Positions 1 to 48,410 of a stretch of DNA of 56,927 nt are shown in pieces (within the stretch, counting starts at the first letter, position 1; every line of letters starts with the position of its first letter). Location: IMG/VR virus record IMGVR_UViG_3300045988_096557. One strand, 5' to 3'. The translations under genes and the position numbers were made by a program. The notes under the pieces are model-generated. The model did no database searches, was not told the origin of the DNA, and saw only the letters and a list, made by a program, of their open reading frames with translations. Source of the stretch: a virus.

Positions 1-45
1 AACTACTACCCCTACAGCAGCGGGCTGGCGCCGGCTTTCGTCATT
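1..45 (+). repeat. DGR variable repeat (VR), 3' portion. The 5' part lies outside the window.
   Basis: Window 1-45 aligns to 717-760. Every mismatch sits opposite a TR adenine (A to C/T/G), and both repeats share a GC-rich 3' block GGGCTGGCGCCGG. Confidence 0.8.
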
Positions 46-51
46 GGATAA
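1..51 (+). CDS. 3' end of the DGR target gene (partial; start lies upstream of the window). The C-terminal codons carry the variable repeat and the gene ends at TAA 49-51.
   Basis: Reading frame N-Y-Y-P-Y-S-S-G-L-A-P-A-F-V-I-G-stop. It is homologous to the template repeat at 700-760, with mismatches only at TR adenines. Confidence 0.7.
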   Translation, partial: NYYPYSSGLAPAFVIG

Positions 52-132
52 TACAGCAAAATAACAATTCGGGACAGTTAAGGTTAAATTGTCCAATAAA
101 AAAATTATATATTCAAGTGAGGGAAATTTTAA

Positions 133-627
133 ATGTCTGTAAAAGTAAAGGATAGACACCTATCAAAACAAGACTGTCTTTATAAAGCCCGTGAATTGGT
201 TGGCTACATTTTAGTCTTAACTCGTCCCAGAGAATTTGATAAGGATGGAAAACAAATCTGCAAACCTGGACTGCTTGGAGAGGGTCAACCTCTTCAAGCG
301 TTCGGGTACGATATAATTAAATGCGGAAAGGGTATACACGCTTGCTGCTATGAGGCGTGTAAGATAAACTTAAAAGATAAAGAAACCCTTACAAAGAGAA
401 ATGAATATCACAATAAAGCGATTGAATATTGTGATAGTATATTTCGACAAATCGACCTATGTATTTATTAGTATGCTCAAAACAGCAAAAAGAAAAGAAG
501 ATCTTTTGAACATCTAGCTAGATTGACTAAGAAAGTAAAAGAATCAATCCAAGATAGAAAAAATAGAGATAAACTTATAGTCGAGCATAGATATTAGGCT
601 CCTAAAACTCATAGGAGAAGTCGATAA
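133..627 (+). CDS. Avd-like accessory variability determinant (small basic protein). The ORF is 133..471 if TAG terminates, or extends to TAA 625-627 if TAG is read through.
   Basis: It occupies the canonical target-avd-TR-RT position. It is a small basic ORF, and the extension past TAG 469 is strongly basic and ends at TAA. Confidence 0.45.
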
Positions 628-654
628 TATTTTTCTGCGGTTAAGTTCTGTATC

Positions 655-760
655 TTTCGGTCCCGTAACTACAACAACTCGAACAACGTTTGCAATGTCA
701 ACAACGATGGATCTGCGAACAACAACAACTACAACAACAGCAACGGGCTGGCGCCGGATT
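655..760 (+). repeat. DGR template repeat (TR). The 5' boundary is approximate.
   Basis: An AAC-rich tract (aac aac aac tac aac aac agc aac ggg ctg gcg ccg) that is near-identical to the VR except at adenines. The supplied ORF 690..947 is a spurious read across it. Confidence 0.8.
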
Positions 761-1066
761 AGATGGAGCTATCATGTTGCGAGTTAAGCTGCGGAGCAGC
801 GCAAACGAGCAACGCCTAAATAGTACCCCGAAGTATATTATTATCCATCTAATTAAGGTTTACTCTGGATTGCACTCACTACGTGGGGAAGAGATTGAGA
901 GACCATTAAAGAGCTTTGCTCTACAACTATCGAATAATATACTATAGGTAGATCTGCCTTTTCATCTAAGGAGAACTTAACCATTTCACTGAAAAAGTGG
1001 ATAAAGTAAGACTGTAGACGTGGAGCTCGAGTAGCTACCACTATAGCTACATGATAAGGAGAAAGT

Positions 1067-2284
1067 ATGTCTGAAATAAATCAAGATACTACTTTCGAGC
1101 GTTTTTGTAGTTTTGACGCTATGTATGATGCGTCTTATAAGGTATGTCGAAACGTTCGATGGAAAGATAGTACAATTAATTTTGAAGAGAATAGGATAGA
1201 AACAATTTTAAAAACAGAAGCTGATCTGCGAGCGTGTGAATACGAATAGCTTGTGTTTAGTTGTTTTTCGATAATCGAACGAGGCAAACCAAGAGATATA
1301 AGAGCGTGTCATATCAACGACAGACTGGTACAAAATGCGTTATGTGAACAAGTTTTATTACCAGAATTAACTCCTAGATTTATCTACGATAATTGTGCGA
1401 CTTTAAGAGGAAAAGGAATAGACTTTGCTTTAAAAAGAGTAAAGAAACACCTTCAACAAGCTCATAGGGAATATGGATTAGGAAAAGATTTTTATGGATT
1501 AAGAATTGATATTCAAAAATATTTTGATTCTATTGACCATAAATCTTTAAAGAAAGCAGCTAAACGTTTGATAAAAGATAAAAGAATTTATCAACTATGC
1601 TGTTATTTAATAGATACATTTTCTTTTAAGCTAACAAAAGATTCCTCTCCCATACCAGGAAAAGATTATTATATTGGTAAACGGCACAAATACACGAAAA
1701 TTAGTACCACTAATTTCAAGTCTGGCCGCAAATACTATGAATATGATAATAAAAGTCTTGGATTAGGAAGTCAAACATCACAATTATTCGCATTGCTAGC
1801 ATTGAACGAAATTGACCACTTCATCAAAGAAGAGTTACATATTAAGTATTATGGTCGTTATATGGATGATTTATATTTATTCCACAATGACAGTCAATAC
1901 TTAGCCGAATGTGAAAAGAGAATAGAAGTTCGCTTAAATAAGCAAGGATTAAAGATGAATAAGAAAAAGACTACTATTACTAGAATCTCTCCTATTCACG
2001 CGGACGGCAAACGTCACACTCCATTAAAATACTTAAAGTGGAACTTTTATCTCACAGACACTAATCATATAATACAAATTCCTTTTAAAAAGAAAGTGGC
2101 TCATTAGCGCAGAAAGTTAAAGAAAATGCAAGCGCTATGGCTAGAGGGTAAAATTTCAACAGATGAAATTTAGAAATCCTATCAAGGTTGGAGGGCACAT
2201 ATTTCTAAAGGAACTTGTTTTTATATAATTCAAGATATGGACAATTATTTTCGTTCATTATTTAAAGGAGTTGAAATAAAGTAA
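1067..2284 (+). CDS. DGR reverse transcriptase, about 405 aa, with three in-frame TAGs (1247, 2105, 2171).
   Basis: The N-terminal segment and the listed ORF 1253..2107 join in one frame across TAG 1247. Motifs recalled from Bordetella phage bRT (not compared computationally): the N-terminal region, KDRLVQNALC versus bRT KDRLVQHALC, and the YMDD box. The gene ends at TAA 2282-2284, overlapping the next ATG. Confidence 0.8.
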
Positions 2285-2946
2285 TGTATATTCTATTAAA
2301 TAGAGAGAATGTAGTAGTTGATATTCTTTCAGAAGCACGTTACATTAAACTGCAATCCTCAAATGGTATTGTCGTTGCCTGCGAGGAAGAAGAGGGAACT
2401 GGGGTTATCGGCTCAAATGGAGATACACATTATACTCTAATTAAAGCCGATGTATTAAATCAATCTAATGCTGTAAAAGTATTAGAGATAGAAACAATTC
2501 CATCAGATGTTACTCCTAATTATTCAATATATAATCAAGAAGATGGAACATTCACTTCTGATTTAGATTAGGAAAAGTATGACAAACAAGAGGAAAACAA
2601 GAAACTATTCGCAGAGTATCTTGCTACCCACCCACTAACTTGGGTTGATGGAAAAGAATATGGAATTACGTAGGAGGACCAGTCTGAGATTAGCTTAAAT
2701 CTCAATCAATATCAAGTCGCTCTCGCGGCCGAAGTAGAAAATCCTACGCTTGAGTGGCACGCTCGACACGAAGAATGTGTGCCATGGAGTTTAGAGCAAT
2801 TATCCGCTCTAAGTTTAGCTATTTCAAATGCGGTATATCCCAAATATCATTTAATGCAAGAATATAAAACTTAGATATTCGAAGCTGATTCAATAGATAA
2901 ATTAAAAGCTATTGAATTAAACTATGAAGATACCGACAGTGAGTAA
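2284..2946 (+). CDS. Hypothetical protein, 220 aa, with 3 in-frame TAGs (2569, 2671, 2872).
   Basis: ORF 2284..2571 continues in the same frame for 125 further codons with no TAA or TGA until TAA 2944-2946. A ribosome-binding site AAAGGAG precedes it. Confidence 0.5.
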
Positions 2947-3382
2947 AAATATAATTCTATTTGCAGTTGGAGGAACTCTATATTACGGTATAGAGTTCCT
3001 CTATAAAACTTTTATCAGCTTTGGAACTTGTCATTGGTCTATGTTCTTATTGGGCGGCTTATGCTTTTTATTAATAGGACTAATGAATGAGAACGTTCTT
3101 TGGGAAGAATCTATTCTTACTCAAGGAGTAAAAGGCTCTTTAATCATAACTGCTTTAGAATTAATCTTTGGTCTAGTATTAAATGTAAAACTAGGCTTAG
3201 GCATTTGGGATTATTCTCATGTTCCATTGAATTTTATGGGGTAGATTTGTTTACCATTCTCTATCGCCTGGTTCTTTTTAAGCCTTTTGGCAATAGTATT
3301 AGACGACTACCTAAGATGGAAATGGTTTGGAGAAGAAAAACCGCATTATCATTTATATAGTAAACCTCCTTGCGAGAAATAA
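2924..3382 (+). CDS. Small membrane protein with four predicted transmembrane helices, 152 aa, one in-frame TAG (3242). It may be a holin-like or CmpB/DUF1113-like protein.
   Basis: Four hydrophobic segments, and the same-frame continuation past TAG to TAA 3380-3382. Confidence 0.45.
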
Positions 3383-3383
3383 A

Positions 3384-3433
3384 AAAAAATGGGGAGAACC
3401 TTGAAATTAAGGTTCTCCCCATTTTTTTTTATT
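3384..3433. terminator. Bidirectional rho-independent terminator between convergent genes.
   Basis: A9-TGGGGAGAACCTT-loop-AAGGTTCTCCCCA-T9, a perfect 13-bp stem flanked by an A-run and a T-run. Confidence 0.75.
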
Positions 3434-4211
3434 TTACATCAATGATAATAATAGCAATATCATTTGTTGGTTTTTCTTTTGTATAAAAGGTAATTCCAAC
3501 CCCAACTGATGCATCAGCGTGATCAATTTTACTATACTCTTCAAGATTAGAAGTATAACTAATAATAGGTGGCACATTACCTGCTTTTCCGCAAGTTAAA
3601 GAAGTATTGGAATAAGTATATGTATACATATCTTCATTTAATACCCAACCTGATGCAGAAAGAGTTGCTGGATAAGCTGCCGTAGTACTTCCACTAATCT
3701 AGTTATCTGTTTCCAATTTGCTATACACATCTAAATTAGTTCTCGCCCCTGCTGCATTAATTGCCCCGGTTCCACCAACTGAAATTGGAAGCGTTCCAAA
3801 TTGCGGAGCGCCAGCTGTAGCGGCAAATAAAGCGCCAGTTCCTTGCAATCCTGTTACACCATTCTCGCTATTTCCGATAACAACCTAACCAGCCGCAATT
3901 TCAACCATCTTTACCGCATTAGTTCCATTACCAATTAATAAAGCATTTACAGTTAGACTATTATGTCCAGTTCCGCCCTGAGCTACAGTGGCAGTCATAT
4001 TTTTAAGAAAAATATCATCAATATCAATCTCAGTAATATCATTCTTTAGAACTTGAGCAGCATAGGCATTTACCTGCAAACGCCCACCTTCTTCATTACT
4101 AATATCAATAAAGAGATTTCCTTTATCTTCTGTGAAATAAGCGTATCCTTCATGAAGAGGTACACTATTCAAATTATCTTCTGGTCCTCGAAAAATCTTA
4201 AATAAAGCCAT
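3429..4211 (-). CDS. Tail fibre protein, about 260 aa, with 2 in-frame TAGs.
   Basis: ORFs 3885..4211 and 3429..3629 are in the same frame and are joined by a TAG-only stretch. N-terminus MALFKIFRG...GYAYFTEDKGNLFID, Gly-rich repeats such as GGTGAINAAGAR, and a ribosome-binding site AAGGAGGG. Confidence 0.65.
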
Positions 4212-16633: not shown

Positions 16634-16668
16634 GGGATAATAGGGGAGGAAATCTCCCCTATTATCCC
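16634..16668. other. Stem-loop (GGGATAATAGGGGAG...TCCCCTATTATCCC) at the boundary between the tape measure protein (TMP) and the fibre gene.
   Basis: A perfect 14-bp inverted repeat. The TMP stop codon (16662-16664) lies inside it. Confidence 0.4.
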
Positions 16669-19600
16669 TTTCTTCTATTTGCCCATTGAGTAGCATCATC
16701 AGCTAAACTACGAATAGCATCTTGAATTTCATCAGAAGATGTCGCATTTGGGAACTCAACTCGCTCAATATTTATATACGGTTCAACTGTGTTGTCTGCT
16801 GGAGTAATCTAAGTATTAGATCCTAATCTTGATGCCATAAGATTAGAAATAGATAGTGCATTTCCATCAAGCGCTTTCTCTATAGAAGCTATAAAACTAG
16901 GTTCAAAAGCTCTTATAGCAGAAACCGCCGCGAGAATATTTTTCGTATCTTCTTGATTTAAAACTAACTCTTTTTCGTGTAAGAAAGCTAATTTAGCATT
17001 ATCAAATTCTCCAGTATAACCTCCTGTATCAAATCCGCTTATTTGACTTTCTTTTAACCAGCCATATGCAGAATTATTAGACTATACATGAATCGGATAT
17101 GGTCTGCCTTTAGCTATATTAGTTATTTTAACTTTCTTGCCGGGCCCACGTCTACCTGCTGGATCTGTGCCATAAGAATCATGATAATAAGTTCCACCAG
17201 TATAAATGACTTCGTCTCCTACTTCTGGGATTCCATTGCCACTTCCAGCTCCTCCGCTGGAAGATCCGCTATTACTATTGCTAGAGTTATTATCAGAAGA
17301 TTGATCTGAATTAGCAGGAGGTAAATCATCTTTATCTATTCCTCCAGCGCTTTCTATTGTATTTCCAGCTGCTCTAGCAGCCTCCTCAAGAGCTCTTATA
17401 TATTCTCTAACTGATTTAGCCATGTCTAAATATTCTTGACTTAAATCTTGAATAGTGCTTATCTATTCTAACATCTAAGTGACAGCTTCTGATCCCACAT
17501 CAGAACATAACTCTGTAGAAGTTGTAACATCATCAAGATAACCTTCTAAATCATCAAGACTTGTTCCAGTCTAATCTGCAACTCCAGAGACAGTAGTTTG
17601 ATAATCTTCCATCGCTCCGCTTGCTTCGTCCATGGCCTTAGATAGAAAATCTTCAAAATTTCCAGCATTAGAAGTCATATTAGCAAGATCTTTTGCGAAA
17701 ACATTATCAAATAAATCAATAAGTTTTGTATTACTTCCAACTATATCTTGAATCTATTCATTATCAGATAATAACAAATCAATAATACTAGAGCCAGAAT
17801 TAGCTATAATATCCTGAATTTCTTGACTTGTAATTCCAGTTAAGTCACTTACCTCGTCTCCCGCAACAATAGCCATATCAATTAAGGCTTTATTACCGGC
17901 TTCGGTCATATCCTAAATAGCGATCTATTTTTCGTTCTCTAGGTCTTTAACCTTCTGCGTATAATAAGAATAGATTTCTTGCGCGCGGGCAGATCTTTCC
18001 TCATCAGTCAAGGTCATATCAGAATAAATCTCTTTTATTTTATCCTGACATTCCTGCCAAGTAGAAATAATTTCTCCAGTAACATCTTCAACCTATTGTT
18101 TAGCTATATTATACCATTCATTCTCTGCATCAAGTAAATTCTATTCCGCATCTGCTATCTAGCTCGCATCTGCGGTGTATTGATAATTCCAGTTACCTTG
18201 ACTATCTCTTACTAATCTAAGTTGATTCTTTGCATTTTGAGCATCTTCAAGAGCCATCTAGGCCTAAAGAACATTATACTTGGCTTCAAGAATTTCTAGA
18301 TCATATTCAGATAGAGTATTATTCTCTCTACGAATATCAATTTCTTCTTGTAACTATTTCAACTAATCTTTCATTTTAGAATTAGTGGCTTTATCAATAT
18401 CCTATTGAAGTTTATTATACCAAGAAGATACTTCATATGCTTCATTTACTTTATCTAAATATCTATCTTCTTGCTCAATGTAATGATCGAACTTGTCTTG
18501 TAGCAAATCTAAGCCAACTCCGCCAGAAACCGCCTATCCAAATTCATATACGGCTCTTTCAATAGCCTAAGTATACATTTCTTGTGCAGTTTCCATAGCG
18601 GCTTGCGCGGAACTTAACATCGCCTATTGGGCTTCATTATATTCTTCTAATAATGCATCTCGATTAGCTTTTAAACCATCATATGCCGGATCTGTTTCAT
18701 CACCATCTAATGCATCTAACGCACTCTAGGCTTCTAAAAGTTCCTATTTAATACCGTCGTACCACTATTTATTTAACTGCGCATTTGCTATTTGAGCTTT
18801 CATTGTCTCTTCGCTTACTTTTTGGAGCTATTCAAATCCTTCTTCGGTTTTATATGTAACCCCCTAAAGTGTATACAATTCTTTTATAAGTCCAAGAACT
18901 GATTCATTATGATCAAGTTGATCAGTAAATTCAGCGAATCTTTCAGATGCAGCGTCTAATGCATCTGGCAACATTTCTTCAAGACCCTCTACCCAATCAA
19001 GTAGAGCTTCTGCGGTAGAAATTATTTTACCCTATAAATCAGATATTTTACTTATAATTCCATCAATATCAGTCGCATCCGTTGCGTTAGCCAATTCTTC
19101 TTGATAACTTTTAAGCGTTTCTTCATAATCCTTGATTATTTTTATATTTTCGTTCACACTATTTTCATCAATACGAGCGACTTCAATACCATGAGTTAAT
19201 TCATCACCAAATGATTCTGCAATCTTTTTAGTTAATTCACGAACAGCATCTTTAGCATCTTTTATTTCTATTACAACTTCAAGTTTATATTCAATCTAAC
19301 TCAATCTATTGTCTGCGATGCTTCTCTCTAGTTCTTCCTATTCGTCCTTTACTTCTTGAATTTTGTCAAGAGTTTCTTCATATTGGGCGAGAGCATCCTA
19401 ACGAGCTTGGAATAATTCATCAGCAGCTTCCTTTTGTAACTGCCAACTATCATATTCTGCCTATCTAGCTTCCTATTCATCTTTAGTAAGATTACTAAAG
19501 GCAACTAAAAAAGCATTATAATCCGCTAAGAAATTATTATTATAATCATCTATTATAGATTGAAGAACACTTTGATAACCTTCAATTTCTCCATTTTCAT

Positions 19601-22600
19601 CAAAAATAAGAGAATTATTAAACAACCCTTGAAGATCTGCCTAGTCTTTTGTAAGATAAGTTTCAGCTTCATTAAGTAGTTTGTTATAATTAGCTTGCTA
19701 TTTCTCTAATTCTTGAAGTTCTCTCTAGTATGCTTGAAGTTTATTGGCGCCATAGGCTCTATCTATATTATTTCCAATATCATCTAATAAATCGTTCTAA
19801 TTCTCAATTTCGCGAGTTATTTCATGGTATCTATCTTCAATATCCTTTAGAGTCTTTTCATCTTCTTCGTCATACTTAGTGCCTTCATTATCTCCGCCAC
19901 TTGAACTTCCCTTTACCCCTTCTATAGCTCCATCAATAGAATCTAATAATTTGCTCTAGGCTATTTTTGCTGCTGCTATAGCCTCATTATACCCATCAAT
20001 ACTCCCCTAATAAATGGCCCTTAGCGCTTCTCCAACTGCCTAAGATTGCTTAGCTTCAAGTGCCTCACTAGCATCACCATAAATATTTAAATCGTCTGCG
20101 GTTACAGGTTCTACATCTAAATTTGCAGTTAAAGAATTTAAGAAATCATTAGCGTTACTCGTATCTATTGTTGTTGCAGCCGAACTATCAAAAGAAACAG
20201 CAGAAGTATCAAAATCTTGCTTAGTAACATTATCAGTTCCTATTTGAGATACTTGAATTCCAGTAGCATATGCCGCATCTCTAATTTTTTCAAGATTAGC
20301 AAGAACATTTTGAGTATTTAACTATACATTAGTACTCATGTTCTGCGCGCCCTAAGCAGAATACTCGCTAACATTAGTCCATAAAGTCTACTAATTTGTA
20401 TCTTGTGCGGTTAAACTATTGACCTAATCATCTAACATTTCTCCATTAGCAAGATTCTAAGCATTTACATATCCCGCTAATAAAGTTCTCTTCTGCTCAT
20501 CTGATAATTCGTTTATAGTTAATTCTCCAGAAGCTAGCTGATCAGCGATCTTAAGCGAAGCTTCAGCCTCTCCTCGTTTAGCCTCTAAAAGAGAAATAAG
20601 ATTTTGAAGCATATTAGATTTGGTATCAGCATCAACAGCTAATTGCCCCTAAGAACTATTATAAAATGCTTGATACATCTCATCTGTTAAAGCAAATGTA
20701 CCATCCCTTAATAATTCCGCGTTAGCTATAAAACCTGGATAGATAGATTCAATAGCCTTAGCTGCTTCTCTACTAAAACTCCAAACTTGTTCTCCAGCTT
20801 CATTGGTAGTCTAGCTTACTCCATCAGAAATAGCATCGAATACACTTACAATTCCGTCAACGGAATTTTCAATCTAATCTAATTGATTCTAAAAATTTAA
20901 TTCTGCATTTATTTGTAACTAAGCTGTGCTAGAATCTATATCATCCTATAAACTACTAATTAGCTACTCTGCTAAAGTTACAGTATCAATTTTATCTTGA
21001 GCTTCTTTTGTCCCATACTCAAATGCACTAGCTACGTTATCCGCAGTTTCGGTTTTAAAAGATTCCCAATCAAAATTTTCACCTAACAAATCCCAATCAA
21101 TCGTATAATTATCAAGATTAAATTCTTCTCCGCCATTTAAGCTACCTTGATAATCATTATACGCTTCTCGAACTTGTTCCCAAGCATAAACAACTTTTTC
21201 TGCACGTTCTAATTCAGAATCGCTATATTGATTTAAAATATCCTATTGCTCAGTTATTCTCTTTTTTGCTTCACTAATCTAATCTATTAATCCATTATTG
21301 ACAGCCTAATAGGATTCATTTATAATCCTCTATAAATAACTCTATTGTTCAACTAAAGTCATAGCAAGGAACTAATTAAAATCAATAATTCCTTTTTCTT
21401 GATTTCCCCAATCAACAGTTTTAGAAAGTGATTCTAATCCTTCTCGATCTAAATCTCTATCTCCAAGAGTTTCTAAGGCAGATTGTGCAGTAGTTAAAGA
21501 TTCTGTTGCGTTTTCAACTTCGGAAATAGCATCAGTATATTTTTTAGCACTGTCATAGGCATCCTAAAAAGTCTCCTATGTTAAAGCACCCCAATTTAAT
21601 AAATTTAATACAGAAGTATCATAATTTTCATCTGTAAAAATAGATTCAAGATTACTTTTTAATTCTTCATCATTGACTAATTCTTCAACCTCTAAAATTG
21701 CGTCATAAATATCTTTAAAGCCACTAATATCAGGATTCAGAGAAGTAGATACTAAATCATTGATTATATCGTTTAATTCTTCGCCTTCATATCCAGCAGA
21801 AGTGAGCGCCTCTGTAACTTCGTTAACCCAAATTTTATACTACGCTAAACTTGATACTTGATCATCGGTAATAGTCTAATTATTAAACTCTCCAAGCTAT
21901 ACCCGAATAGCATTTATACTCTCTTTAGTTTCTTTATATTGAGTGACAACCTCTTCCATTTTATCTCGCCACTCAACAGCAGCATTGTAAAGTCCAGATG
22001 CTCCTCTTTCCGAAACAGTCATGCTATTATTCATCAAATTAATAGCATTATTTAATTGATCATAAAAATTAATTAATTCTTCTGTATTATTTGGGTCTAT
22101 AGAAAAAGCTAAGTTTCTTCTTCCGCCAATTACATTGTCATTCCAACTACTATATAAAGCGTCCACATTATTGAGAAGAATATTAGATGCAGTATCTTCT
22201 TCGGTGCCATTCCAAAAATCATTAAAACCAGTAAAAGACCCCTCATAATTTCCACCAAAATATACGTGGCCCACGCCCTCTCTCGCGGTTTCAAGAATGA
22301 GAGTTTCATTCGCACGTAACGCTTCTTCTTGGGACTACAAAGTTTCCTAAAGTTCTCTTCTTTGAGCTTCTTGAGCAGCTTTTAAAACACTATTATAATC
22401 TTCATACTATCCACTTAGTCTAGCTAATGCACTGCCTTCTAAATCATACGCTTCAGCCAACTAACGAGTTAAATCATCTAACTCTTCTTTTCCATCCCCA
22501 GTTTCTTGATAAGTAGATAAGGCATTTTGAGTAGATTGAATTAACTCTCTATTCGCTTGTGCTTCTTCTTTTTTTGCATTTGCCGCATCAATAGAGGCCT

Positions 22601-25388
22601 AAGCAGCAGCCAAGGTTGCTTCATGCTATGCTTTTATAGCACTTGTTATTGCAGTAATCGCTATTATTGCTACCATAATTGCAGCAGTTAAGATGCCGGA
22701 AGCCATAGCGGCTTTCTGCTTCGCCATAGCAAGCTATTCTGTCGCTAAAGCCTCTACTGATGTTGCCGCGGCGTCCGCCGCTGCTGCAACAGCATGAGCA
22801 GTAGTTAACATATTTAAAGTTTTATAAACAGAAATAATAGAGGGTAGTAACATACCAAGAGAAGTAAACAAAGCTACAATTCTTTCAGTTGAAGTCATAT
22901 CTTCATCAGAAAAAATTCTTCCAATGCTCTAAAAAGCATTCATAATCATAGTTAAACTAGAAAGAGAACTTCCAACCTAAACCAATATTGTAGCCCAATC
23001 TCTCGTTGGTATTAATGCTTTTGTAATTACACTAGGGAACTTCGCTAACAATTCCTAATATCGAGCCTCTTGTTCAGTTGTTCTTGCAGTAACAGACTCC
23101 AATTTTGTTAATTCATTAATATAAGAAGTAACTACTCTTGGATCGGCTCCCATAGTCTATAAAATAGTCCCAAGTTCACGAATTTGCAATTTTGCATTTT
23201 GAGACTAATTTTTTAACCCCTCTAATTGCTAAGTCAGCCATTCAATCTAAGCATAATTATGTTCTTTGCCCGTAACACTAGATAATAAATTACGAAGGCT
23301 GTCTCTAGTCGCAGTTCCAGCGCTTTCAAGTTTTTTAAATTCTTGATACACTGTATCAAGTTTTGTAGATTGCTAAATTAAACTAGTTAACTAAGTAGTA
23401 ACATCATTATAAATTTTATCAAGGTTACTATTAGCTCTTATATTTAACTAAATTTGATTACTTTTATTTCTACTATTAAATTTATTTATTTCTGCTTTAA
23501 CTTCTTCTTGCCAGCCATCTTTTATTCCTATATTAAAATAAATAGTATCTCTAAGATTTAATACATTTTCCCTAGACTAAATCTACTACTAAGAATATGT
23601 CTTTAACTAATCTTGCAAAATACTTAATTTTAACTGTTCTGTCTAAATTAATCTACGACCATTAGCATCCATCGCGTCGTAGTTACTATTTATTTGGCCC
23701 TATATATTAGCCTAGTCAACCATAATATTAAAAAGATTTTTTTCAGCCTAAGACATAGAGTTTGTTAAGCCTAATTGAGTTGCTATCTCAGCCGCTGATG
23801 CCTACAAATTTCTCGCTCTATTCTACTCTAATCCAGATAGAACTTTTATATTAGCCACCATAGAACGCATTGATTCAGCAATCTTATTTCCATAAATCCC
23901 ATTAATCAACAAAGCGGTACTAGCTAAAATACCATTTAACCCTCCCATTGCATCAATGGCGTCTGCAATACCAGATAAAAATGGAGTTAAGACATTATCT
24001 GCATTTATATACAAATCTGGATTTATGACACTATCATAAATATCCTCAGCAGATGCTTTTACTCTATCTCTAGCAGCTTCCCAAGATTCAGCATAAATAT
24101 CTGCCTGTTCCTAAAGAGATCCCTCTGCTCCATAAGCACTAGCTAAATTCTCCTAAAAGAAATCCCAATTATCCATAAGTGCAATAAGACGAGTATATTG
24201 GCGAACTCCGGCTACGGTCTAAGCCAAAGCAATCTACTAGTCATTAGATAAGGTCTCCCATTTTGAACCCATTTCATCAAGTAAGGTATCCATAGTTTTA
24301 ATCTCACCATTAACATCAAAAATATCAATACCCACTTTTTCAAGAGCTTTAGAATATTTATTTAATGTAATGCCATCATCGAGAGTTTCTCCAAGATTTA
24401 AGCCTTGGATACGAGCAAATAAAGTTCTAAATGCTGTACCTACTGTATTAGCAGACTCACGTGTCGTAGCAGTGACAGTAGCAAGAGCAGAAGCAGCATA
24501 TTCGTAACTTAATCCAACTGTATCTGCTACAGAGGCAAATTGTTGGATACCTTCTGAAATTTCATCAGAGCTAGACGCTGTATCGGCGCCTAAACGCACC
24601 ATTACATCAGCATAATATTCAAGACTCTTACTTCCATCATAGAAGTTGTTCCAAACTGCGGTCAGCTGATCCGAAGCGGTCTATGCACTAATTCCTGCGG
24701 CATTAGCCATTTTAATAGTAGTTTCAGTTCTATCTAAAACTTCCTATTCAGTAAGACCCTATTGATAATAAATCAAAGCAGCATCACTATATTCAACAGT
24801 AGTTGTACTTAATGCTTTTGCTGCTTCATTTGCCTATTGAGCAAATTTAGCCATGTCTTCCGCAGAATTTTCAGTAACTATACGAATATTTGTTAATGAT
24901 TCATTTAGATCTTGTGCATACCCATAAGCTGATTCTATGGTTCCCACAAAACTATTTAACGCGGTGGAGGTAATCTGCCATCTCATAGTATTTTTCATAG
25001 TAATCCATAACTAATCAAATATTTTGCCAGTGCGCAATGCTGGAAGCTCCGCTTTTTGAATCGCTGTTGCTACATTTAAAAAAGCCTTTTGCCCCTCGGT
25101 ACCAATCGAAATTAACGAGTTGGCATAATCTTTAAGAGTTCTTCCGCTAGATTTTAAACTATTTTCAAAAGCTACTAAATCTAACTTTCCAGTCCCTTGA
25201 TTAAATGCCTAATGCATATAAGTAGATAACTCTAGCGCAGACTAAGAAGCTTGTCGCAATTCTGCTGTAACTTTAGAACCGGCACTGATTTTATTTAAAG
25301 ATTGAACTGCCTCGTTTACTGCTCTGTAAAGTTCAGCAGTATCAACATCAAACCCAATCTAATAATTTAATCTTCTATTATTAGCCAC
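16662..25388 (-). CDS. Tail tape measure protein (TMP), about 2908 aa, with roughly 100 in-frame TAGs.
   Basis: ORFs 17082..17423, 21897..22274, 23823..24014 and 24237..24602 are all in frame 0. Hand translation shows no TAA or TGA across about 8.7 kb. The sequence is Ala/Gln/Glu/Leu-rich with coiled-coil character, and the C-terminus DTGGYTGEFDNAKLAFLHEKELVLN is typical of TMPs. GTG start with ribosome-binding site AAAGGAGGA. Confidence 0.6.
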
Positions 25389-43572: not shown

Positions 43573-44340
43573 ATGAAACGAGAAGAGCTCAAACAACACG
43601 CGCAATCGCATTACGCAGACATTAAAGTGAGACTCAGGGAAGATACAGATCGCGCAATTATAAACTCTGAAATTTTTGGCCCCAATCTTCCTTTTCCGCA
43701 AAAACCGCGAGAAACCCACCATAATACCTTTTATCTTAAAGACCAAGATAGTGTATCCTGCCTATTCGGTTTAACCGATCGGAGCAAGACTGCGATCTTA
43801 AATTATGCAAGCTATAAACATCCAGGTGGTTATTTCCTTGGAGGTAGCTCTGCACAAGAAGAGGCATTGTGTCACGAAAGCAACCTTTATCCTATTCTTC
43901 TTGCTTTTGATGATACTTATTACGCATGGAATAGACAGAGACTGAATCGAGCCCTATATCTTGATAGAGCTATCTATACTCCTGATGTAGTCTTTGAAAA
44001 AGACGATAGTAGAAAATTAGCTGATGTAATTACTTGTGCTTCTCCTAATTATAGAACAGCACATACTTATCAGCAAGTTCCTCTTTCTCTAAACAATAGG
44101 ATAATGGAAGAGAGAATTAATTTTATGTATCGAATTGCCGAGGTTAAGGGAGTGGAAAATTTAATCGCGGGAGCCTGGGGCTGTGGTGTTTTTATGCAAG
44201 ATCCATCAACGGTCGCCACCTTGCTCGTAAACGCAGCCCGCAATTATAATATTCCAAATATCTATTTTGCGATTCCAAACCGCAATTCCCGCAATTTTAG
44301 AATTTTCTTGGAGGTTTTGGAAAAATGTTCAAGCAATTAA
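43573..44340 (+). CDS. Macro domain protein of the bacterial PARG-like / DUF2263 type, 255 aa.
   Basis: Signature HPGGYFLGGSSAQEE (the GGG-x6-8-QEE PARG motif) and a LIAGAWGCGVF block. Ribosome-binding site AGAAAGGAA, with an ATG at 43573 in frame with the listed ORF. Confidence 0.65.
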   Translation: MKREELKQHAQSHYADIKVRLREDTDRAIINSEIFGPNLPFPQKPRETHHNTFYLKDQDSVSCLFGLTDRSKTAILNYASYKHPGGYFLGGSSAQEEALCHESNLYPILLAFDDTYYAWNRQRLNRALYLDRAIYTPDVVFEKDDSRKLADVITCASPNYRTAHTYQQVPLSLNNRIMEERINFMYRIAEVKGVENLIAGAWGCGVFMQDPSTVATLLVNAARNYNIPNIYFAIPNRNSRNFRIFLEVLEKCSSN

Positions 44341-44762
44341 TTATTGCGAGGCGAGACTTAAATATGTCTCCAGGGAAACTTGCCGCACAAGTTTCCCATG
44401 CTTCTATTGCTTTTCTTTTGGAAAAGTTATATTGGGGAAGTAAAGAAGTTGTTAAAGAAAGAGACGGTCTTATGTATCATATAGGAATAAGCCTCGATAG
44501 AGACTTATTCCATAATTGGATAGCGGAAGCGGAGACCAAAGTAGTTTGTAGAGCGAAGAATAAGAATGATTTGTTAAAGGCTGTTAAGATAGCAGAAGAA
44601 TTAGGATGGGAAGAGAATAAGGATTATTGGCTTATCTATGATGCTTGTAGAACAGAGTTAGAACGCGAAGGCCCGGAAGGGACTTTGACGTGTATTGGAT
44701 TTAGGCCAATGGAGGCGGAAGAAATTGACAAAATTGGGAAGAAGTATCAGCTTTATAATTAA
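44325..44762 (+). CDS. pth2: Peptidyl-tRNA hydrolase, PTH2 family, 145 aa.
   Basis: Motifs RRDLNMSPGKLAAQVSHASIAF and a C-terminal CIGFRP...IDKIGKKYQLY match the PTH2/Bit1 signature. It overlaps the macro domain gene by 16 nt. Confidence 0.7.
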   Translation: MFKQLIIARRDLNMSPGKLAAQVSHASIAFLLEKLYWGSKEVVKERDGLMYHIGISLDRDLFHNWIAEAETKVVCRAKNKNDLLKAVKIAEELGWEENKDYWLIYDACRTELEREGPEGTLTCIGFRPMEAEEIDKIGKKYQLYN

Positions 44763-44967
44763 TATAGTTTTGATTTTACTATTGTTGACTGCTTGCGTGG
44801 AGGAGAACAATCGCTATCCAAGGCTAGAGTATATTCCTACAATGTGGAGATCTGATGCGATTAATATTAAACTAGAGGATGGATATATCTTAAAAGGATA
44901 TGAAACGATAGAAACTGAGGATGGATATAATTTGATTTTTAGTTTTGAGGCAACCGACGATGGATAA
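44695..44967 (+). CDS. Putative lipoprotein (lipobox LLTAC). The start is uncertain and it overlaps the pth2 3' end.
   Basis: A hydrophobic signal peptide followed by Cys. Confidence 0.35.
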   Translation: MDLGQWRRKKLTKLGRSISFIINIVLILLLLTACVEENNRYPRLEYIPTMWRSDAINIKLEDGYILKGYETIETEDGYNLIFSFEATDDG

Positions 44968-45103
44968 AGTATTAGTATGGTTTGACGGCAAGCATTATTA
45001 TAATATATGCGCAGTCTGTGGAGAATTATATCCAATTTACAAAGTAGAAGATCATATTATATATAATTTAAAAAAGAAGTGTAAATGCGGAGAGAAGAAG
45101 TGA
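44957..45103 (+). CDS. Small zinc-ribbon protein (CxxC...CxC), 48 aa.
   Basis: ATGGATAAAG overlaps the previous stop. It has two Cys pairs and ends at TGA 45101-45103. Confidence 0.3.
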   Translation, partial: TMDKVLVWFDGKHYYNICAVCGELYPIYKVEDHIIYNLKKKCKCGEKK

Positions 45104-45125
45104 GTTCTTCTCTCTTTTCGTTATT
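45091..45125 (+). terminator. Rho-independent terminator candidate.
   Basis: AGAGAAGAA...TTCTTCTCT stem followed by a T-rich tract. Confidence 0.4.
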
Positions 45126-45389
45126 GAGATTGAAAAGTCGATTTAGATTTTGAAATGGCGTGGCAGAACGATTTTACAAAAAAATTTCCAGTTTTTCCCA
45201 AAATACACGCCCCTCTTTCACATGGTAAAGTATTGAAGTGTAGTTGGCCTCTTTCACTCGTTAAAGTACGAAAGCAAGAAAGCACGCCCCCCTAAAGGAA
45301 TACGCGCGCGTAAAGGATTTGTGCAAACTGCACAACAAGATGTTATTTATTTTGTGCAAAAGAGAGAGAAAGAAATTTCAAAAAAACTA

Positions 45390-45418
45390 TTGACAAGTGA
45401 GCATTTTGGTGGTAAACT
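45390..45418 (+). promoter_or_regulatory. Sigma-70-like promoter with an upstream A-tract (TTGACA-17-TGGTAAACT).
   Basis: TTGACA 45390-45395, spacer 45396-45412, TAAACT 45413-45418 preceded by TGG. The upstream tract AAATTTCAAAAAA is UP-element-like. Confidence 0.5.
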
Positions 45419-45486
45419 GGACTTGTCCAGTAGGACAGAGACAAAAGCACGGCACTTTGAAAATTAAAAAAATTTCAAAAAAGGTA

Positions 45487-45515
45487 TTGACAAACTGCTA
45501 AAGGTTTGATACAAT
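45487..45515 (+). promoter_or_regulatory. Consensus sigma-70 promoter with an upstream A-tract (TTGACA-17-TACAAT).
   Basis: TTGACA 45487-45492, spacer 45493-45509, TACAAT 45510-45515. The A-tract element matches that of the previous promoter. Confidence 0.55.
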
Positions 45516-45568
45516 ACAGACAGAACAAAAGAGAACCACACCACAAAAAGAAAGGGAGTCAAAAGAGT

Positions 45569-45943
45569 ATGAAAAAGATTGATTTTACCAATGAAGATCG
45601 AGCCATTATTATGGAGTATATGGCCGCTAAGATGGCTAAGTCTGCGGCGGAGGCGGCGGAGAAAGCAGCTAAGGCTAAGGCTAAAGAGCTATTCTCCAGA
45701 TTAGGTAAGGCTTTTAAGGCTACGGACAAAACAAGTTATCTATATGGCACGGTACAAATGCAGGGTAAGGCGAAAGCGGTGGTATATAAAGAAACTACCG
45801 CAAAAGGAACGGTTGACTGGAAAGCCTATGCTATGGCATTAGGCGGGACAGAGGCCGAAGCAGAGCAATTCCGCAGACCTTCCGATGTTCGTACCTCTTT
45901 TGATTGGGCGACAAAGACCCAAGAAGAAGAAATTAGAGGATAA
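45569..45943 (+). CDS. Hypothetical early protein, 124 aa (possibly Gp157-like).
   Basis: Ribosome-binding site AAAGGGAG, with an ATG at 45569 in frame with the listed ORF 45506..45943. Confidence 0.5.
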   Translation: MKKIDFTNEDRAIIMEYMAAKMAKSAAEAAEKAAKAKAKELFSRLGKAFKATDKTSYLYGTVQMQGKAKAVVYKETTAKGTVDWKAYAMALGGTEAEAEQFRRPSDVRTSFDWATKTQEEEIRG

Positions 45944-45954
45944 CAGTTTATAAA

Positions 45955-45995
45955 CCCTGCCTTGCAAAACACAAGGCAAGGCAGGGTTATAATAA
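45955..45995 (+). terminator. Rho-independent terminator.
   Basis: CCCTGCCTTGC...GCAAGGCAGGG, an 11-bp stem, followed by TTATAATAATT. Confidence 0.5.
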
Positions 45996-46017
45996 TTAAA
46001 AGAAAGGGGCATACTAT

Positions 46018-46164
46018 ATGTATCAGTTACAAGTTTTAGCCAATGAGAAAATGCGCTATTATGAACCATCCACCCTTTCAATGGCAAGATGGAAGGTCAG
46101 TCACGAGATAGTCAATCCTAATCATTGGATTGTGGATTTATCCAGTGGAGAAATCGTAGATTAA
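46018..46164 (+). CDS. Small hypothetical protein, 48 aa.
   Basis: Ribosome-binding site AAAGAAAGGGG plus ATG, ending at TAA 46162-46164. Confidence 0.35.
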   Translation: MYQLQVLANEKMRYYEPSTLSMARWKVSHEIVNPNHWIVDLSSGEIVD

Positions 46165-46210
46165 AAAGAAGCTGACCTAACGGCTATACGGGGAGAAAGG
46201 ATAAAAGACT

Positions 46211-46513
46211 ATGAACAATTATATTAAGTGGTTCGTTGGGCCTACTTTTAGAAAGCGTGAATTTATTAAACTTTTGCGGTATAAGATGAATGTGCGTTCC
46301 GCAGAGGTAGAGGACGGCATCATCTTAGACCTGGATGCTTTTAATGCCATGCGAGTGGCCTATATGCCACACTGGGCTTATATCAATAGAAAGTTTATCA
46401 ATAGCAATCTGCATACCAGAATTGCAAGCGAAGACGAATATAAGGTTGCTATGGTCGGAGATACAATCGGTACTGAATGGGTTAAAGAACAGGAGGCAAA
46501 GAAATGGAAATGA
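46211..46513 (+). CDS. Hypothetical protein, 100 aa.
   Basis: Listed ORF with a ribosome-binding site GGAGAAAGG. Confidence 0.55.
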   Translation: MNNYIKWFVGPTFRKREFIKLLRYKMNVRSAEVEDGIILDLDAFNAMRVAYMPHWAYINRKFINSNLHTRIASEDEYKVAMVGDTIGTEWVKEQEAKKWK

Positions 46514-46656
46514 GAATTATTAAGCGGATAGGAGGCGGCATTTGTGCCGCTCTCCTACTCTGGGCAGTTCTTAGTTGGGCTGATATAGTGGCGGATAACT
46601 GTGAGCCAAACCCACAGCACAGCGAATATAATATGTTCGTTCTCATGACTAAATAA
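46504..46656 (+). CDS. Small membrane peptide, 50 aa.
   Basis: Overlapping ATG with a hydrophobic core GGGICAALLLWAVLSW. Confidence 0.35.
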   Translation: MEMRIIKRIGGGICAALLLWAVLSWADIVADNCEPNPQHSEYNMFVLMTK

Positions 46657-46669
46657 TAGGAGGAAAAAA

Positions 46670-46903
46670 ATGTATAGAGGGACTTATATCGACGCCATGG
46701 GCCGCAAGCGCAGAGAGATGGGATATTTCAGTCTTAATAAGCCCACTCTGAATAAACTCCATATACCAGTAATTGTCCAAGCGAGAGATAAGACAAGTGC
46801 GGCGAATAAAATCAATAGGAAATATAAGTTGCGTATAAGTCCCAGCAATCTACGGGAGGTGCCGATGGGCACAGGCTATCTCATGGAAACCATGGAGCTG
46901 TAA
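46670..46903 (+). CDS. Hypothetical protein, 77 aa.
   Basis: Listed ORF with a ribosome-binding site AGGAGG. Confidence 0.55.
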   Translation: MYRGTYIDAMGRKRREMGYFSLNKPTLNKLHIPVIVQARDKTSAANKINRKYKLRISPSNLREVPMGTGYLMETMEL

Positions 46904-46914
46904 AGGAATAAAAA

Positions 46915-46953
46915 TGACTGGCAATCTGCACAAAGATTGCCAGTCATTTTTAT
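46915..46953 (+). terminator. Rho-independent terminator.
   Basis: TGACTGGCAATC...GATTGCCAGTCA stem followed by TTTTTAT. Confidence 0.6.
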
Positions 46954-46975
46954 GCACTTTTCCATATTGACTTTT

Positions 46976-47116
46976 CGCCGGGCCGCCAGCGTGCGCCGCG
47001 GCCCAAATTTTTATTTATCCGGCAGTTTCAACAATTATATGATCGAAAGTCTGTGCAATTCGACAAAAGATTTTCTCCCGAAATTACTTGACATTCCTCT
47101 TGTCATGTGTTATTAT
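46976..47116 (+). repeat. Early-region intergenic cassette, copy 1: GC-rich hairpin, AAATTTTT, TTTCAACAATT / TGTGCAATT half-sites, and promoter TTGACA-17-TATTAT (47088-47116).
   Basis: Motifs read directly from the sequence. The same architecture recurs at 6 further sites. Confidence 0.6.
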
Positions 47117-47170
47117 ATACTTGTCCAGAGGGACAAGGTCACAAAAAGAATTTGAAAGGAAGTAAAAGAA

Positions 47171-47410
47171 ATGACTTTGAAAATGATTGCAGGTCTGCTT
47201 TCTCCGCTCGCAGAAGATACCATGTTCTTTGACGGGGAAGGGGTCGAAATTATCAATGAGAATACTCAAGCTCATTACCATGAGCTACCTGATCACAAGA
47301 TAACCCTGGGAGGAGACGTCATTGAGGCGTCTAAGGAATGGGTGCTGGGACTTCCGGTAACTGGCATTAAAGCAAGAGGCAACAATCTAATCATTTATGT
47401 AGATGGTTAA
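47171..47410 (+). CDS. Hypothetical protein, 79 aa.
   Basis: Listed ORF with a ribosome-binding site GAAAGGAAG. Confidence 0.55.
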   Translation: MTLKMIAGLLSPLAEDTMFFDGEGVEIINENTQAHYHELPDHKITLGGDVIEASKEWVLGLPVTGIKARGNNLIIYVDG

Positions 47411-47473
47411 GAAAACCTGCGGGAGTGGAGGTTTATGGCCTCCACTCCCCACGATAAAAAAGGAGAAATAAAT

Positions 47474-48329: not shown

Positions 48330-48371
48330 CTTCTCAAAAGAAAGGGAGTTGTTGGTATGCAGAAATTAATG

Positions 48372-48403: not shown

Positions 48404-48410
48404 ATTCGTT

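What the first reader, a model, noticed from the sequence alone, without database searches (positions are those of the whole stretch)
1..2284. Diversity-generating retroelement: VR/TR pair with adenine-specific mismatches, Avd-like ORF and RT
Window 1-45, the 3' end of a plus-strand gene truncated by the window edge, aligns to 717-760. Every one of the roughly 8 mismatches lies opposite an adenine in the 700-760 copy. The changes are A to C, C, T, T, C, C, G and C.

The 700-760 copy is AAC-rich (aac aac aac tac aac aac agc aac), which is the hallmark of a DGR template repeat. Both copies end with the same GC-rich block GGGCTGGCGCCGG and then diverge, like an IMH/IMH* pair.

Between them lies a small basic Avd-like ORF. 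Downstream is a reverse transcriptase with a bRT-like N-terminus and a YMDD box. The target protein, whose C-terminus is NYYPYSSGLAPAFVIG, lies mostly upstream of the window. By analogy with other phage DGRs it is probably a receptor-binding or tail fibre protein.

The 290 bp between the TR and the RT (776-1066) may encode the structured spacer RNA needed for cDNA priming.
Basis: seen in the sequence. Interest (0 to 1): 0.85.

Follow-up and report, generated by a model that had tools for sequence, protein, structure and literature searches.

The report
Active diversity-generating retroelement in recoded phage
This is a genuine, recently active diversity-generating retroelement that rewrites the tip of a phage receptor-binding protein; it is a well-known kind of system, here in a gut phage that reads the TAG stop codon as an amino acid.

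Summary
Window 1-34 is the last 34 nt of a variable repeat (VR). It matches the 3' end of a 100-nt template repeat (TR, 658-757), in register 1<->724 rather than 717. There are 5 mismatches, not 8, and all lie at TR adenines.

Two near-identical IMG/VR contigs supply the missing VR. They are 100% identical over 4,755 nt of flanking DNA but differ at 16 VR positions, all adenine-templated. This shows recent activity.

The RT (1067-2284) and the accessory gene (133-627) are intact only if TAG is read as sense, and the whole late region of this phage is TAG-recoded. The RT is DGR-type (GxxxSQ, YMDD; best solved match is bRT).

The target protein is Big_3 Ig-like domains plus a DUF6273 C-type-lectin-fold domain. 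The accessory protein is a basic four-helix bundle with an Avd-like fold but no detectable sequence similarity to Avd.

The TR-RT spacer is a conserved, covarying RNA. Its helices mirror the template:primer and cPRT-Stop duplexes of the Bordetella phage DGR.

Verdict: a new member of a known kind, of moderate interest.

The parts
1..51 (+). 3' end of the DGR target gene (last 16 codons NYYPYSSGLAPAFVIG plus TAA at 49-51). The rest lies upstream of the window.
   Evidence: Translation. The full gene was recovered from the near-identical contig L001: about 585 aa, two Big_3 domains plus C-terminal DUF6273.
1..34 (+). Variable repeat (VR), last 34 of 100 nt
   Evidence: Aligns to TR 724-757 with 5 mismatches, all at TR adenines. 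The full VR is seen in L001 and L002.
22..34 (+). GC-rich 3' block of the VR (GGGCTGGCGCCGG), IMH-like
   Evidence: Identical to TR 745-757, after which VR and TR diverge. Its function is inferred by analogy with BPP-1.
133..627 (+). Accessory gene: 164-aa basic four-helix-bundle protein (Avd-like fold), with in-frame TAG at codons 113 and 155
640..649 (+). 5' arm (GUUAAGUUCU) of the duplex that brackets the TR; pairs with 972-981
   Evidence: 97.1% of cells paired; 4 of 10 pairs with compensatory changes vs 0-1 in slid controls; 0/500 shuffles reach the covariation score.
658..757 (+). Template repeat (TR), 100 nt, 16 AAC codons in the VR reading frame
   Evidence: The TR is identical in the window, L001 and L002, while their VRs differ.
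758..1066 (+). Spacer RNA between the TR and the RT start: conserved, covarying structure
   Evidence: RNAalifold gives 52 pairs, 25 with compensatory changes. Controls: 25 vs 10.6 +/- 1.8 in shuffles (0/500); slid controls 4-7. No Rfam family. Single-sequence fold z = -2.57.
759..768 (+). Template-side strand of the proposed template:primer duplex (UUAGAUGGAG). Pairs with 960-969; an alternative partner is 846-855.
   Evidence: Helix 1. It covaries in L028/L029. The alternative proximal partner is shown.
776..813 (+). Interrupted stem-loop just downstream of the TR (P2 776-785/804-813; P3 788-792/796-800), in the position of the BPP-1 Avd-binding stem-loop
   Evidence: 9 of 13 pairs show compensatory changes. 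The positional analogy comes from bioRxiv 10.1101/2023.10.23.563531.
960..969 (+). Proposed primer-side strand (UUUCAUCUAA); A969 is the predicted priming nucleotide
   Evidence: Pairs with 759-768. It is followed by GG, then the stop-duplex strand, as in BPP-1 Sp47-56/G57/C58. The priming role is inferred.
972..981 (+). 3' arm (AGAACUUAAC) of the TR-bracketing duplex (cPRT-Stop-like)
1013..1051 (+). Conserved stem-loop (P8 1013-1017/1047-1051; P9 1020-1027/1033-1041) just upstream of the RT ribosome-binding site
   Evidence: 7 of 12 pairs show compensatory changes. Role unknown.
1067..2284 (+). DGR reverse transcriptase, 405 aa, with in-frame TAG at codons 61, 347 and 369

Best explanation
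Window 1-2284 is the 3' part of a complete, recently active diversity-generating retroelement (DGR). It sits in a roughly 100-150 kb gut phage of Bacillota that translates TAG as a sense codon, probably Gln, in its late genes.

Gene order is: target gene (VR at its extreme 3' end), accessory gene, TR, structured spacer, RT.

Proposed mechanism, with each step marked as shown or inferred:
- An RNA spanning roughly 640-1066 is transcribed (inferred).
- The RNA folds so that the TR is looped out between two adjacent helices, 640-649:972-981 and 759-768:960-969 (helices shown by covariation).
- The RT, together with an oligomer of the basic four-helix-bundle accessory protein, binds this RNA. It primes cDNA synthesis in cis from the 3' end of the 960-969 strand, near A969, by analogy with Sp A56 of phage BPP-1 (inferred).
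- The RT copies the TR while misincorporating opposite adenines (the outcome is shown: only A-templated positions differ).
- The cDNA replaces the VR, guided by the shared GC-rich 3' block (inferred).

The result is randomisation of about 17 AAC/AAT-templated codons. These lie on a C-type-lectin-fold (DUF6273) domain at the tip of a Big_3-repeat protein encoded beside tail-fibre genes, most likely a receptor-binding protein.

Because both the RT and the accessory gene contain in-frame TAG codons, full-length proteins can be made only when amber suppression is active.
For: VR/TR:
- Window: 5/12 A changed vs 0/22 non-A.
- L001: 15/35 A changed. L002: 13/35 A changed. In each, the single non-A mismatch among 66 non-A positions is the boundary base just outside the repeat (window 657). 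Fisher p = 1e-7 and 2e-6.
- The same pattern holds in about 30 related loci.

Activity:
- L001 and L002 are identical at 4500/4500 nt downstream and 255/255 nt upstream of the VR, yet differ at 16/100 VR positions.
- In two 90%-identity protein clusters, 15 of 15 sampled members have distinct VRs. There are 5.6 residues per variable VR column vs 2.1 elsewhere.
- Entropy peaks coincide with the AAC codons.

RT:
- Pfam RVT_1 4.6e-17; PHROG 1423 2.8e-84.
- Best solved structure is 8ub7, the DGR RNP RT. BLASTP to bRT gives 8e-19, with GSQTSQ/GSLTSQ and YMDD aligned.
- The nearest deposited phages are known DGR carriers.

Recoding: the longest ORF goes from 464 to 2913 aa when TAG is read through. 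Homologues have Q at the accessory TAG column.

Accessory protein.

RNA: compared with the BPP-1 elements.
Against: - Only 34 nt of the VR are in the window. The rest is inferred from contigs that are 99.2% identical, not from this molecule.
- No BPP-1-like DNA hairpin was found downstream of the VR (z = -0.07).
- No suppressor tRNA is in the window, so the identity of the TAG-encoded residue is indirect.
- cDNA synthesis, the priming site and homing are all inferred by analogy.
- The strand just 3' of the TR has two possible partners (846-855 or 960-969). The single-sequence MFE prefers the proximal one.
Confidence: 0.93

Rival explanations
1. The cassette is a decaying relic: a DGR that once diversified the target but is no longer active.
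For: No activity can be measured from one sequence. The literature notes silent or fragmentary DGR cassettes in some crAss-like phages (PMC12386605).
Against: There are zero non-adenine VR/TR mismatches within the 100-nt repeat. Contigs with identical flanks carry different VRs. 15 of 15 cluster members have distinct VRs. The RT catalytic motifs are intact, and the RT, accessory gene and RNA helices are conserved with compensatory changes.
Confidence: 0.04
2. The RT belongs to another prokaryotic RT class (group II intron, retron, or defence-associated DRT/UG), and the repeat pair is coincidental.
For: NCBIfam gives sub-threshold hits to group II intron RT (74 bits), Drt3a, Drt2 and retron RT.
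Against: All those hits are far below the curated cut-offs: 74 vs 300, 50 vs 200, 43 vs 390, 33 vs 235. The best solved relative is the DGR RT. The GxxxSQ motif is present. The adenine-specific repeat pair recurs in every relative.
Confidence: 0.01
3. The accessory protein is not a diverged Avd. It is an unrelated basic four-helix-bundle protein that took over the Avd role (an analogue, not a homologue).
For: - No Pfam, NCBIfam or PHROG hit.
- The profile finds nothing among PDB sequences.
- hhalign against bAvd gives probability 0.2%.
- An exhaustive profile search of 1.84 billion representatives finds only 28 clusters, none with an Avd Pfam match.
- It is 164 aa, with a beta-hairpin insert and invariant His/Cys residues.
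Confidence: 0.25

Closest known systems
Bordetella phage BPP-1 DGR (mtd-VR / avd (bbp7) / TR / brt), the prototype
   Same: - Identical gene order.
- VR at the 3' end of the target.
- Adenine-only mutagenesis.
- GC-rich block ending both repeats.
- RT homologous (8e-19).
- Accessory protein with the same fold class and charge.
- C-type-lectin-fold variable domain.
- An RNA in which a strand just 3' of the template pairs with a spacer strand, followed 2 nt later by a strand that pairs upstream of the TR (searches compared).
   Different: - RT only 25% identical, with a ~35-aa insertion between motifs 3 and 4 and a longer C-terminus (405 vs 328 aa).
- Accessory protein has no sequence similarity, is 164 vs 128 aa, and carries a beta-hairpin insert.
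- TR is 100 vs 134 nt. Spacer is 309 vs about 140 nt.
- The template-side strand of the proposed primer duplex lies just outside the VR/TR homology rather than inside the TR.
- No hairpin downstream of the VR.
- Target is Big_3 + DUF6273, not Mtd.
- Genes contain in-frame TAG.
Gut-phage DGRs with DUF6273 targets (phages nd4/nd12 'tentaclins', Faecalibacterium and Roseburia phages; PMC10743442, PMC11792537)
   Same: The RT's nearest deposited relatives are these phages (nd12 35%, Shimadzu 33%, FP_Toutatis 30%). The target carries a DUF6273 domain of C-type-lectin fold combined with Ig-like domains. Hosts are gut Bacillota.
   Different: RT identity is at most 35%. Here DUF6273 is C-terminal, after the Big_3 repeats, whereas tentaclins have it N-terminal. 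Those phages are 30-55 kb and use the standard code; this one is about 100-150 kb and TAG-recoded.
DGRs of stop-codon-recoded crAss-like phages (zeta group; PMC12386605)
   Same: DGR RT genes interrupted by amber codons that must be suppressed. GxxxSQ motif. C-type-lectin tail-fibre targets.
   Different: A different phage lineage. The terminase here is closest to Enterococcus EF1/H1-type phages and to the phAss-1 group of Bacillota phages. Most zeta crAss DGRs are reported without an accessory gene.
phAss-1-like TAG-recoded gut phages (PMC10607447)
   Same: Related terminase (44% identity). TAG->Gln recoding concentrated in virion genes. Genome about 135 kb. Predicted Clostridia host.
   Different: That paper does not mention any DGR or reverse transcriptase (0 occurrences). 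The relationship is only distant.

Membership tests
Diversity-generating retroelement (DGR) | Reverse transcriptase of the DGR clade (RVT_1 domain, motif 4 [LIV]GxxxSQ, YxDD catalytic box) | tested here: met
   RVT_1 4.6e-17. PHROG RT 2.8e-84. Best PDB match is the DGR RT 8ub7. LGSQTSQ and YMDD align to bRT. The frame requires TAG read-through.
Diversity-generating retroelement (DGR) | TR/VR near-repeat whose mismatches are confined to TR adenines | tested here: met
   Window: 5/12 A vs 0/22 non-A. L001 15/35 A and L002 13/35 A, each with one non-A mismatch, the boundary base outside the repeat. Recurs in about 30 relatives.
Diversity-generating retroelement (DGR) | VR lies in a protein-coding target gene, with TR adenines in codon positions 1-2 (AAY codons) | tested here: met
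   34 of 35 TR adenines fall in codon positions 1 or 2; there are 16 AAC codons. The VR ends 17 nt before the target stop codon. Only the last 34 nt of the VR are in the window.
Diversity-generating retroelement (DGR) | VR hypervariable among otherwise near-identical genomes while the TR is constant | tested here: met
   L001 vs L002: 0 differences in 4,755 flanking nt, 16 in the VR, TR identical. 15 of 15 cluster members have distinct VRs.
Diversity-generating retroelement (DGR) | Shared GC-rich element at the 3' end of VR and TR, followed by divergence (IMH / IMH*) | tested here: met
   GGGCTGGCGCCGG at 22-34 and 745-757, then unrelated sequence. Its homing function is not testable here.
Diversity-generating retroelement (DGR) | Structured RNA flanking the TR that provides cis-priming (template:primer duplex, upstream/downstream 'stop' duplex, stem-loop after the TR) | tested here: met
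   The helices exist and covary. Their topology matches the BPP-1 description. Their roles are inferred by analogy.
Diversity-generating retroelement (DGR) | Variable domain with a C-type-lectin (or Ig-like) fold displaying the VR residues | tested here: met
Diversity-generating retroelement (DGR) | Adenine-mutagenic cDNA synthesis and retrohoming demonstrated | not testable with these tools
   Requires experiment or read-level population data.
Diversity-generating retroelement (DGR) | DNA hairpin/cruciform just downstream of the VR (a BPP-1-type feature, not universal) | tested here: not met
   Window 20-135 folded as DNA: z = -0.07, with 89/200 shuffles folding as well.
Avd (accessory variability determinant; Pfam 23S rRNA-IVP / S23 family) | Sequence or profile membership in the Avd family | tested here: not met
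   - No Pfam, NCBIfam or PHROG hit.
- The profile finds no PDB sequence.
- hhalign against bAvd gives probability 0.2%.
- Remote relatives also lack the domain.
Avd (accessory variability determinant; Pfam 23S rRNA-IVP / S23 family) | Small, strongly basic four-helix bundle encoded between the VR and the TR | tested here: met
Avd (accessory variability determinant; Pfam 23S rRNA-IVP / S23 family) | Homopentameric barrel that binds the RT and the RNA | not tested
   No multimer prediction or experiment was available.
Group II intron RT / retron RT / defence-associated RTs (DRT, UG/Abi) | Score above the curated family cut-off | tested here: not met
   TIGR04416 74 vs 300 bits; Drt3a 50 vs 200; Drt2 43 vs 390; retron St85 33 vs 235.

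The most novel reading that the evidence does not exclude
The cassette may be a mechanistically distinct DGR variant in two linked ways.

(a) Its accessory protein belongs to a narrow family (28 representative clusters among 1.84 billion proteins) with no detectable sequence similarity to Avd. It has a beta-hairpin insert and invariant His/Cys residues. It may be an independent recruit to the Avd role, or may use a different RT/RNA-binding mode.

(b) DGR activity may be deliberately gated by amber suppression. All relatives carry 1-11 in-frame TAGs in the RT. One clade starts the RT with TTG-AGT-TAG-TAG-TAG. The strand just 3' of the TR can pair either with a proximal decoy (846-855) or with the primer strand (960-969). 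Together these could restrict mutagenic retrohoming to the late, suppressor-tRNA-expressing phase of infection.
Probability: 0.25. Interest if true: 0.6.

Novelty: new member of a known kind. Interest (0 to 1): 0.4.

Why it matters
DGRs are the only known natural system of targeted protein hypermutation in prokaryotes, and tens of thousands have already been catalogued. Another phage DGR is therefore not surprising in itself.

Three points give this one some value.

First, standard DGR finders and standard-code gene callers would break both the RT and the accessory gene at TAG. Its accessory protein is also invisible to Avd HMMs. It is therefore an example of DGRs that are likely under-counted in recoded phages.

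Second, about 23 distinct related sequences give clean covariation support for an RNA architecture like that seen by cryo-EM in the Bordetella phage DGR. The support comes from a distant Bacillota-phage lineage with an unrecognisable accessory protein, and it backs the claim that the cis-priming mechanism is general.

Third, the in-frame amber codons tie DGR protein production to the phage's code switch. That makes the timing of mutagenic homing experimentally testable.

Tried and rejected
- Circular closure. I looked for the rest of the VR at the far end of the window, using an A-masked scan of both strands. There was no match above background (36-39 of 83 non-A positions), so the window is not a circularly permuted complete genome.
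- Megablast of 1-2300 against INPHARED phages: no match.
- Rfam at E <= 1 on 1-2400: nothing.
- tRNA scan of the whole window for a suppressor tRNA: none.
- BPP-1-like DNA hairpin downstream of the VR: not significant.
- Sequence-level Avd membership: Pfam, PHROGs, NCBIfam, a profile against PDB sequences, hhalign against bAvd, and an exhaustive profile search followed by a Pfam scan of the remote hits. All were negative.
- crAss-like affiliation. I considered it because of the recoding and genome size, and rejected it because the terminase groups with Enterococcus, Geobacillus and phAss-1-type phages.
- Sigma-70 promoter scan of 1-3500: fewer hits than in shuffles, so uninformative.
- Other RT classes were considered and rejected on curated cut-offs.
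Full report
**1. The observation**

Window 1-34 aligns without gaps to 724-757; the repeat finder reports the same pair over 1-37/724-760 (family D19, 84% over 37 nt). The mismatch count is 5, not about 8.

All five mismatches lie opposite TR adenines (727, 733, 734, 736, 743; A->T, C, C, T, G). The next base (758 A / 35 C) is also an adenine. After that the sequences are unrelated.

Both copies end in GGGCTGGCGCCGG. For the window alone, the adenine bias is 5/12 against 0/22 (Fisher p = 0.003). That is suggestive but based on only 34 nt.

**2. Genetic code**

The RT frame is broken by TAG at codons 61, 347 and 369. The small ORF is broken by TAG at codons 113 and 155.

Reading TAG as sense raises the longest ORF in the window from 464 to 2913 aa. 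It also makes 4-44 kb essentially fully coding, whereas recoding TGA does not. The region from about 44 to 57 kb already reads well in the standard code.

Homologues of the small ORF are mostly exactly 164 aa and carry Q at the first TAG column. The second TAG is TCG in close relatives. No tRNA is encoded in the window.

The cassette is therefore written in a TAG-recoded, code-15-like dialect.

**3. The missing VR**

An exact-match scan found two IMG/VR contigs with the same VR-downstream junction. Both carry the complete VR. Aligning them defines the TR as window 658-757 (100 nt).

- L001: 15 of 35 TR adenines changed.
- L002: 13 of 35 TR adenines changed.
- In each, the only non-A mismatch is the base just outside the repeat (window 657). 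Fisher p = 1e-7 and 2e-6.

34 of the 35 TR adenines fall in codon positions 1 or 2, and the TR encodes 16 AAC codons.

L001 and L002 are identical at 4500/4500 nt downstream and 255/255 nt upstream of the VR, and have identical TRs. Yet they differ at 16 of 100 VR positions. That is the signature of recent mutagenic homing, not of ordinary divergence.

**4. Generality**

The RT retrieves 33 related loci from phage contigs of about 50-150 kb. An unbiased diagonal search finds the same order (VR, accessory gene, TR, spacer, RT) in these loci. Mismatches are almost exclusively at adenines, for example 24 A / 0 C / 1 G / 0 T. The recurring single G is my extension overrunning the 3' boundary.

Contigs L003, L004, L008, L009 and L023 begin at or inside the VR/TR region, as the window does. 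This indicates that assemblies break there, probably because of VR heterogeneity and the VR/TR repeat.

Across 95 homologous targets, per-column entropy is high exactly at the AAC-templated residues. It is near zero at the scaffold residues W, E, R, S, V, C, G and LAPAFVI.

Within two 90%-identity clusters (741 and 862 members), 15 of 15 sampled members have different VRs. Variable VR columns hold 5.6 residues on average, against 2.1 elsewhere.

**5. The proteins**

*RT.* Pfam RVT_1 scores 4.6e-17 and PHROG 1423 scores 2.8e-84. The best solved relative is the 328-aa RT of the DGR ribonucleoprotein 8ub7 (8.6e-15). BLASTP against BPP-1 Brt gives 8e-19 at 25% identity. LGSQTSQ aligns with IGSLTSQ and YMDD with YMDD, and there is a ~35-residue insertion before motif 4.

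Group II intron, retron and DRT models all score far below their cut-offs. The nearest deposited phages (at most 35% identity) are known DGR carriers: nd12, Roseburia Shimadzu and Faecalibacterium phages.

*Target.* The gene was reconstructed from L001. It has two Big_3 Ig-like domains and a C-terminal DUF6273 domain.

The neighbouring genes on the opposite strand are tail-fibre and tail proteins, followed by virion, portal and terminase genes. A receptor-binding role is therefore likely but inferred.

*Accessory protein.* It is 164 aa with pI 9.7. No Pfam, PHROG or NCBIfam family matches it.

The sequence tests are all negative:
- a profile against PDB sequences;
- hhalign against bAvd;
- an exhaustive profile search of 1.84 billion representatives, which finds only 28 clusters, none with an Avd Pfam match.

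I therefore call it Avd-like in position, charge and fold. Homology is unproven.

**6. The RNA**

The 309 nt between the TR and the RT are conserved. RNAalifold on 23 distinct sequences gives 52 pairs, 25 of them with compensatory changes.

In the controls, 97.2% of cells are paired. The 25 double-change pairs compare with 10.6 +/- 1.8 in shuffles (0/500) and 4-7 in slid registers. No Rfam family matches.

Extending the alignment upstream of the TR revealed a further duplex, 640-649 (GUUAAGUUCU) with 972-981 (AGAACUUAAC). It has 97.1% of cells paired and 4 of 10 pairs with double changes, against 0-1 in slid controls. The covariation score is 0.282 against 0.098 in shuffles (0/500).

The TR is thus looped out between two adjacent helices:
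- 640-649:972-981;
- 759-768:960-969, separated from the first on the 3' side by only GG.

This is the topology reported for BPP-1. There, spacer residues 47-56 form the template:primer duplex ending in the priming A56, G57 follows, and C58 onward joins the 'cPRT Stop' duplex that pairs with sequence upstream of the TR. A stem-loop just downstream of the TR binds Avd (bioRxiv 10.1101/2023.10.23.563531).

By analogy I predict:
- A969 is the priming nucleotide;
- 776-813 is the accessory-protein-binding stem-loop;
- the small hairpin at about 987-999, followed by the A-rich AUAAAGUAAGA, is the stop-associated stem-loop.

These roles are inferred, not shown.

One complication remains. The 758-768 strand is also perfectly complementary to a proximal copy, UCCAUCUAAU (846-855). 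The single-sequence MFE prefers that copy, and it covaries in L030. However, it is absent from L028/L029, where only the distal pairing exists and covaries. The two pairings may be alternative conformations.

**7. Context**

The terminase is 50% identical to those of Enterococcus phages of about 134-142 kb, and 44% identical to that of the recoded gut phage phAss-1. The paper describing phAss-1 mentions no DGR. The host is therefore probably a gut member of the Bacillota, not Bacteroidota.

DGR RT genes interrupted by amber codons have already been described in zeta crAss-like phages (PMC12386605). The combination of DGR and recoding is therefore known.

All relatives here carry 1-11 in-frame TAGs in the RT. 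One clade starts the RT with TTG AGT TAG TAG TAG. A perfect bidirectional terminator at 3382-3429 closes the plus-strand operon.

**8. Verdict**

This is a bona fide, recently active DGR.

It is a new member of a known kind. The mildly unusual aspects are the unrecognisable accessory protein, the long and well-supported RNA architecture, and the dependence of both DGR proteins on amber suppression.

Interest is moderate (0.4).

Noticed in passing
window 1-44000 vs 44000-56927: The structural/late region is TAG-recoded: for example a 2908-aa ORF at 16662-25388 (-) with 102 in-frame TAG, and a 1304-aa ORF with 27. The ~44-57 kb region reads well in the standard code. No tRNA gene, including any suppressor, is present in the window.
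   Followed up: partly
window 45371-55004: Repeated early-gene-like cassettes. They combine strong sigma-70 consensus promoters (TTGACA-17-TATAAT; repeat families D1, D4, D5) with GC-rich hairpin plus T-run terminators (D2: 46975, 50063, 50949, 52338, 54203, 54968). There is also a palindromic TTGCACAA...TTGTGCAA motif (D3/D6: 47024, 48459, 50111, 50997) that looks like an operator.
   Followed up: no
L013 3986-4000 (and L014-L027, L035): In one clade of relatives the DGR RT ORF begins TTG AGT TAG TAG TAG: three consecutive amber codons immediately after the start, upstream of the conserved FERFCSFD motif. This would make RT synthesis strongly dependent on suppression.
   Followed up: partly
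window 1; L003, L004, L008, L009, L023 contig starts: Several independent assemblies, including this window, begin inside or next to the VR/TR region. This suggests that assembly graphs break at the hypervariable VR or the VR/TR repeat.
   Followed up: partly
window 133-627 (accessory protein residues H69, C72, C100, C110): His69, Cys72, Cys100 and Cys110 are invariant across 35 homologues of the accessory protein. This could be a metal site or disulphides. No such feature came up in the Avd comparisons made here.
   Followed up: no
window 846-855 vs 960-969: Two copies of CAUCUAA can each pair with the strand just 3' of the TR (758-768). The proximal copy is favoured in the single-sequence MFE but is absent in L028/L029. 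This may be a conformational switch.
   Followed up: partly
window 3382-3429: A perfect 20-bp inverted repeat flanked by A-runs and T-runs. It is a bidirectional intrinsic terminator between the plus-strand DGR operon and the convergent minus-strand tail-fibre genes.
   Followed up: no
window 2284-2946 and 2924-3382: Two plus-strand ORFs lie downstream of the RT in the same operon. One is a 220-aa protein with a sub-threshold DUF4376 match (21.5 bits vs cut-off 25). The other is a 152-aa hydrophobic, membrane-like protein. Any relationship to the DGR is unknown.
   Followed up: no
window 592-594: The second in-frame TAG of the accessory gene (codon 155) is TCG (Ser) in the 99%-identical contigs L001 and L002. 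This is a TAG/sense polymorphism within one phage population.
   Followed up: partly
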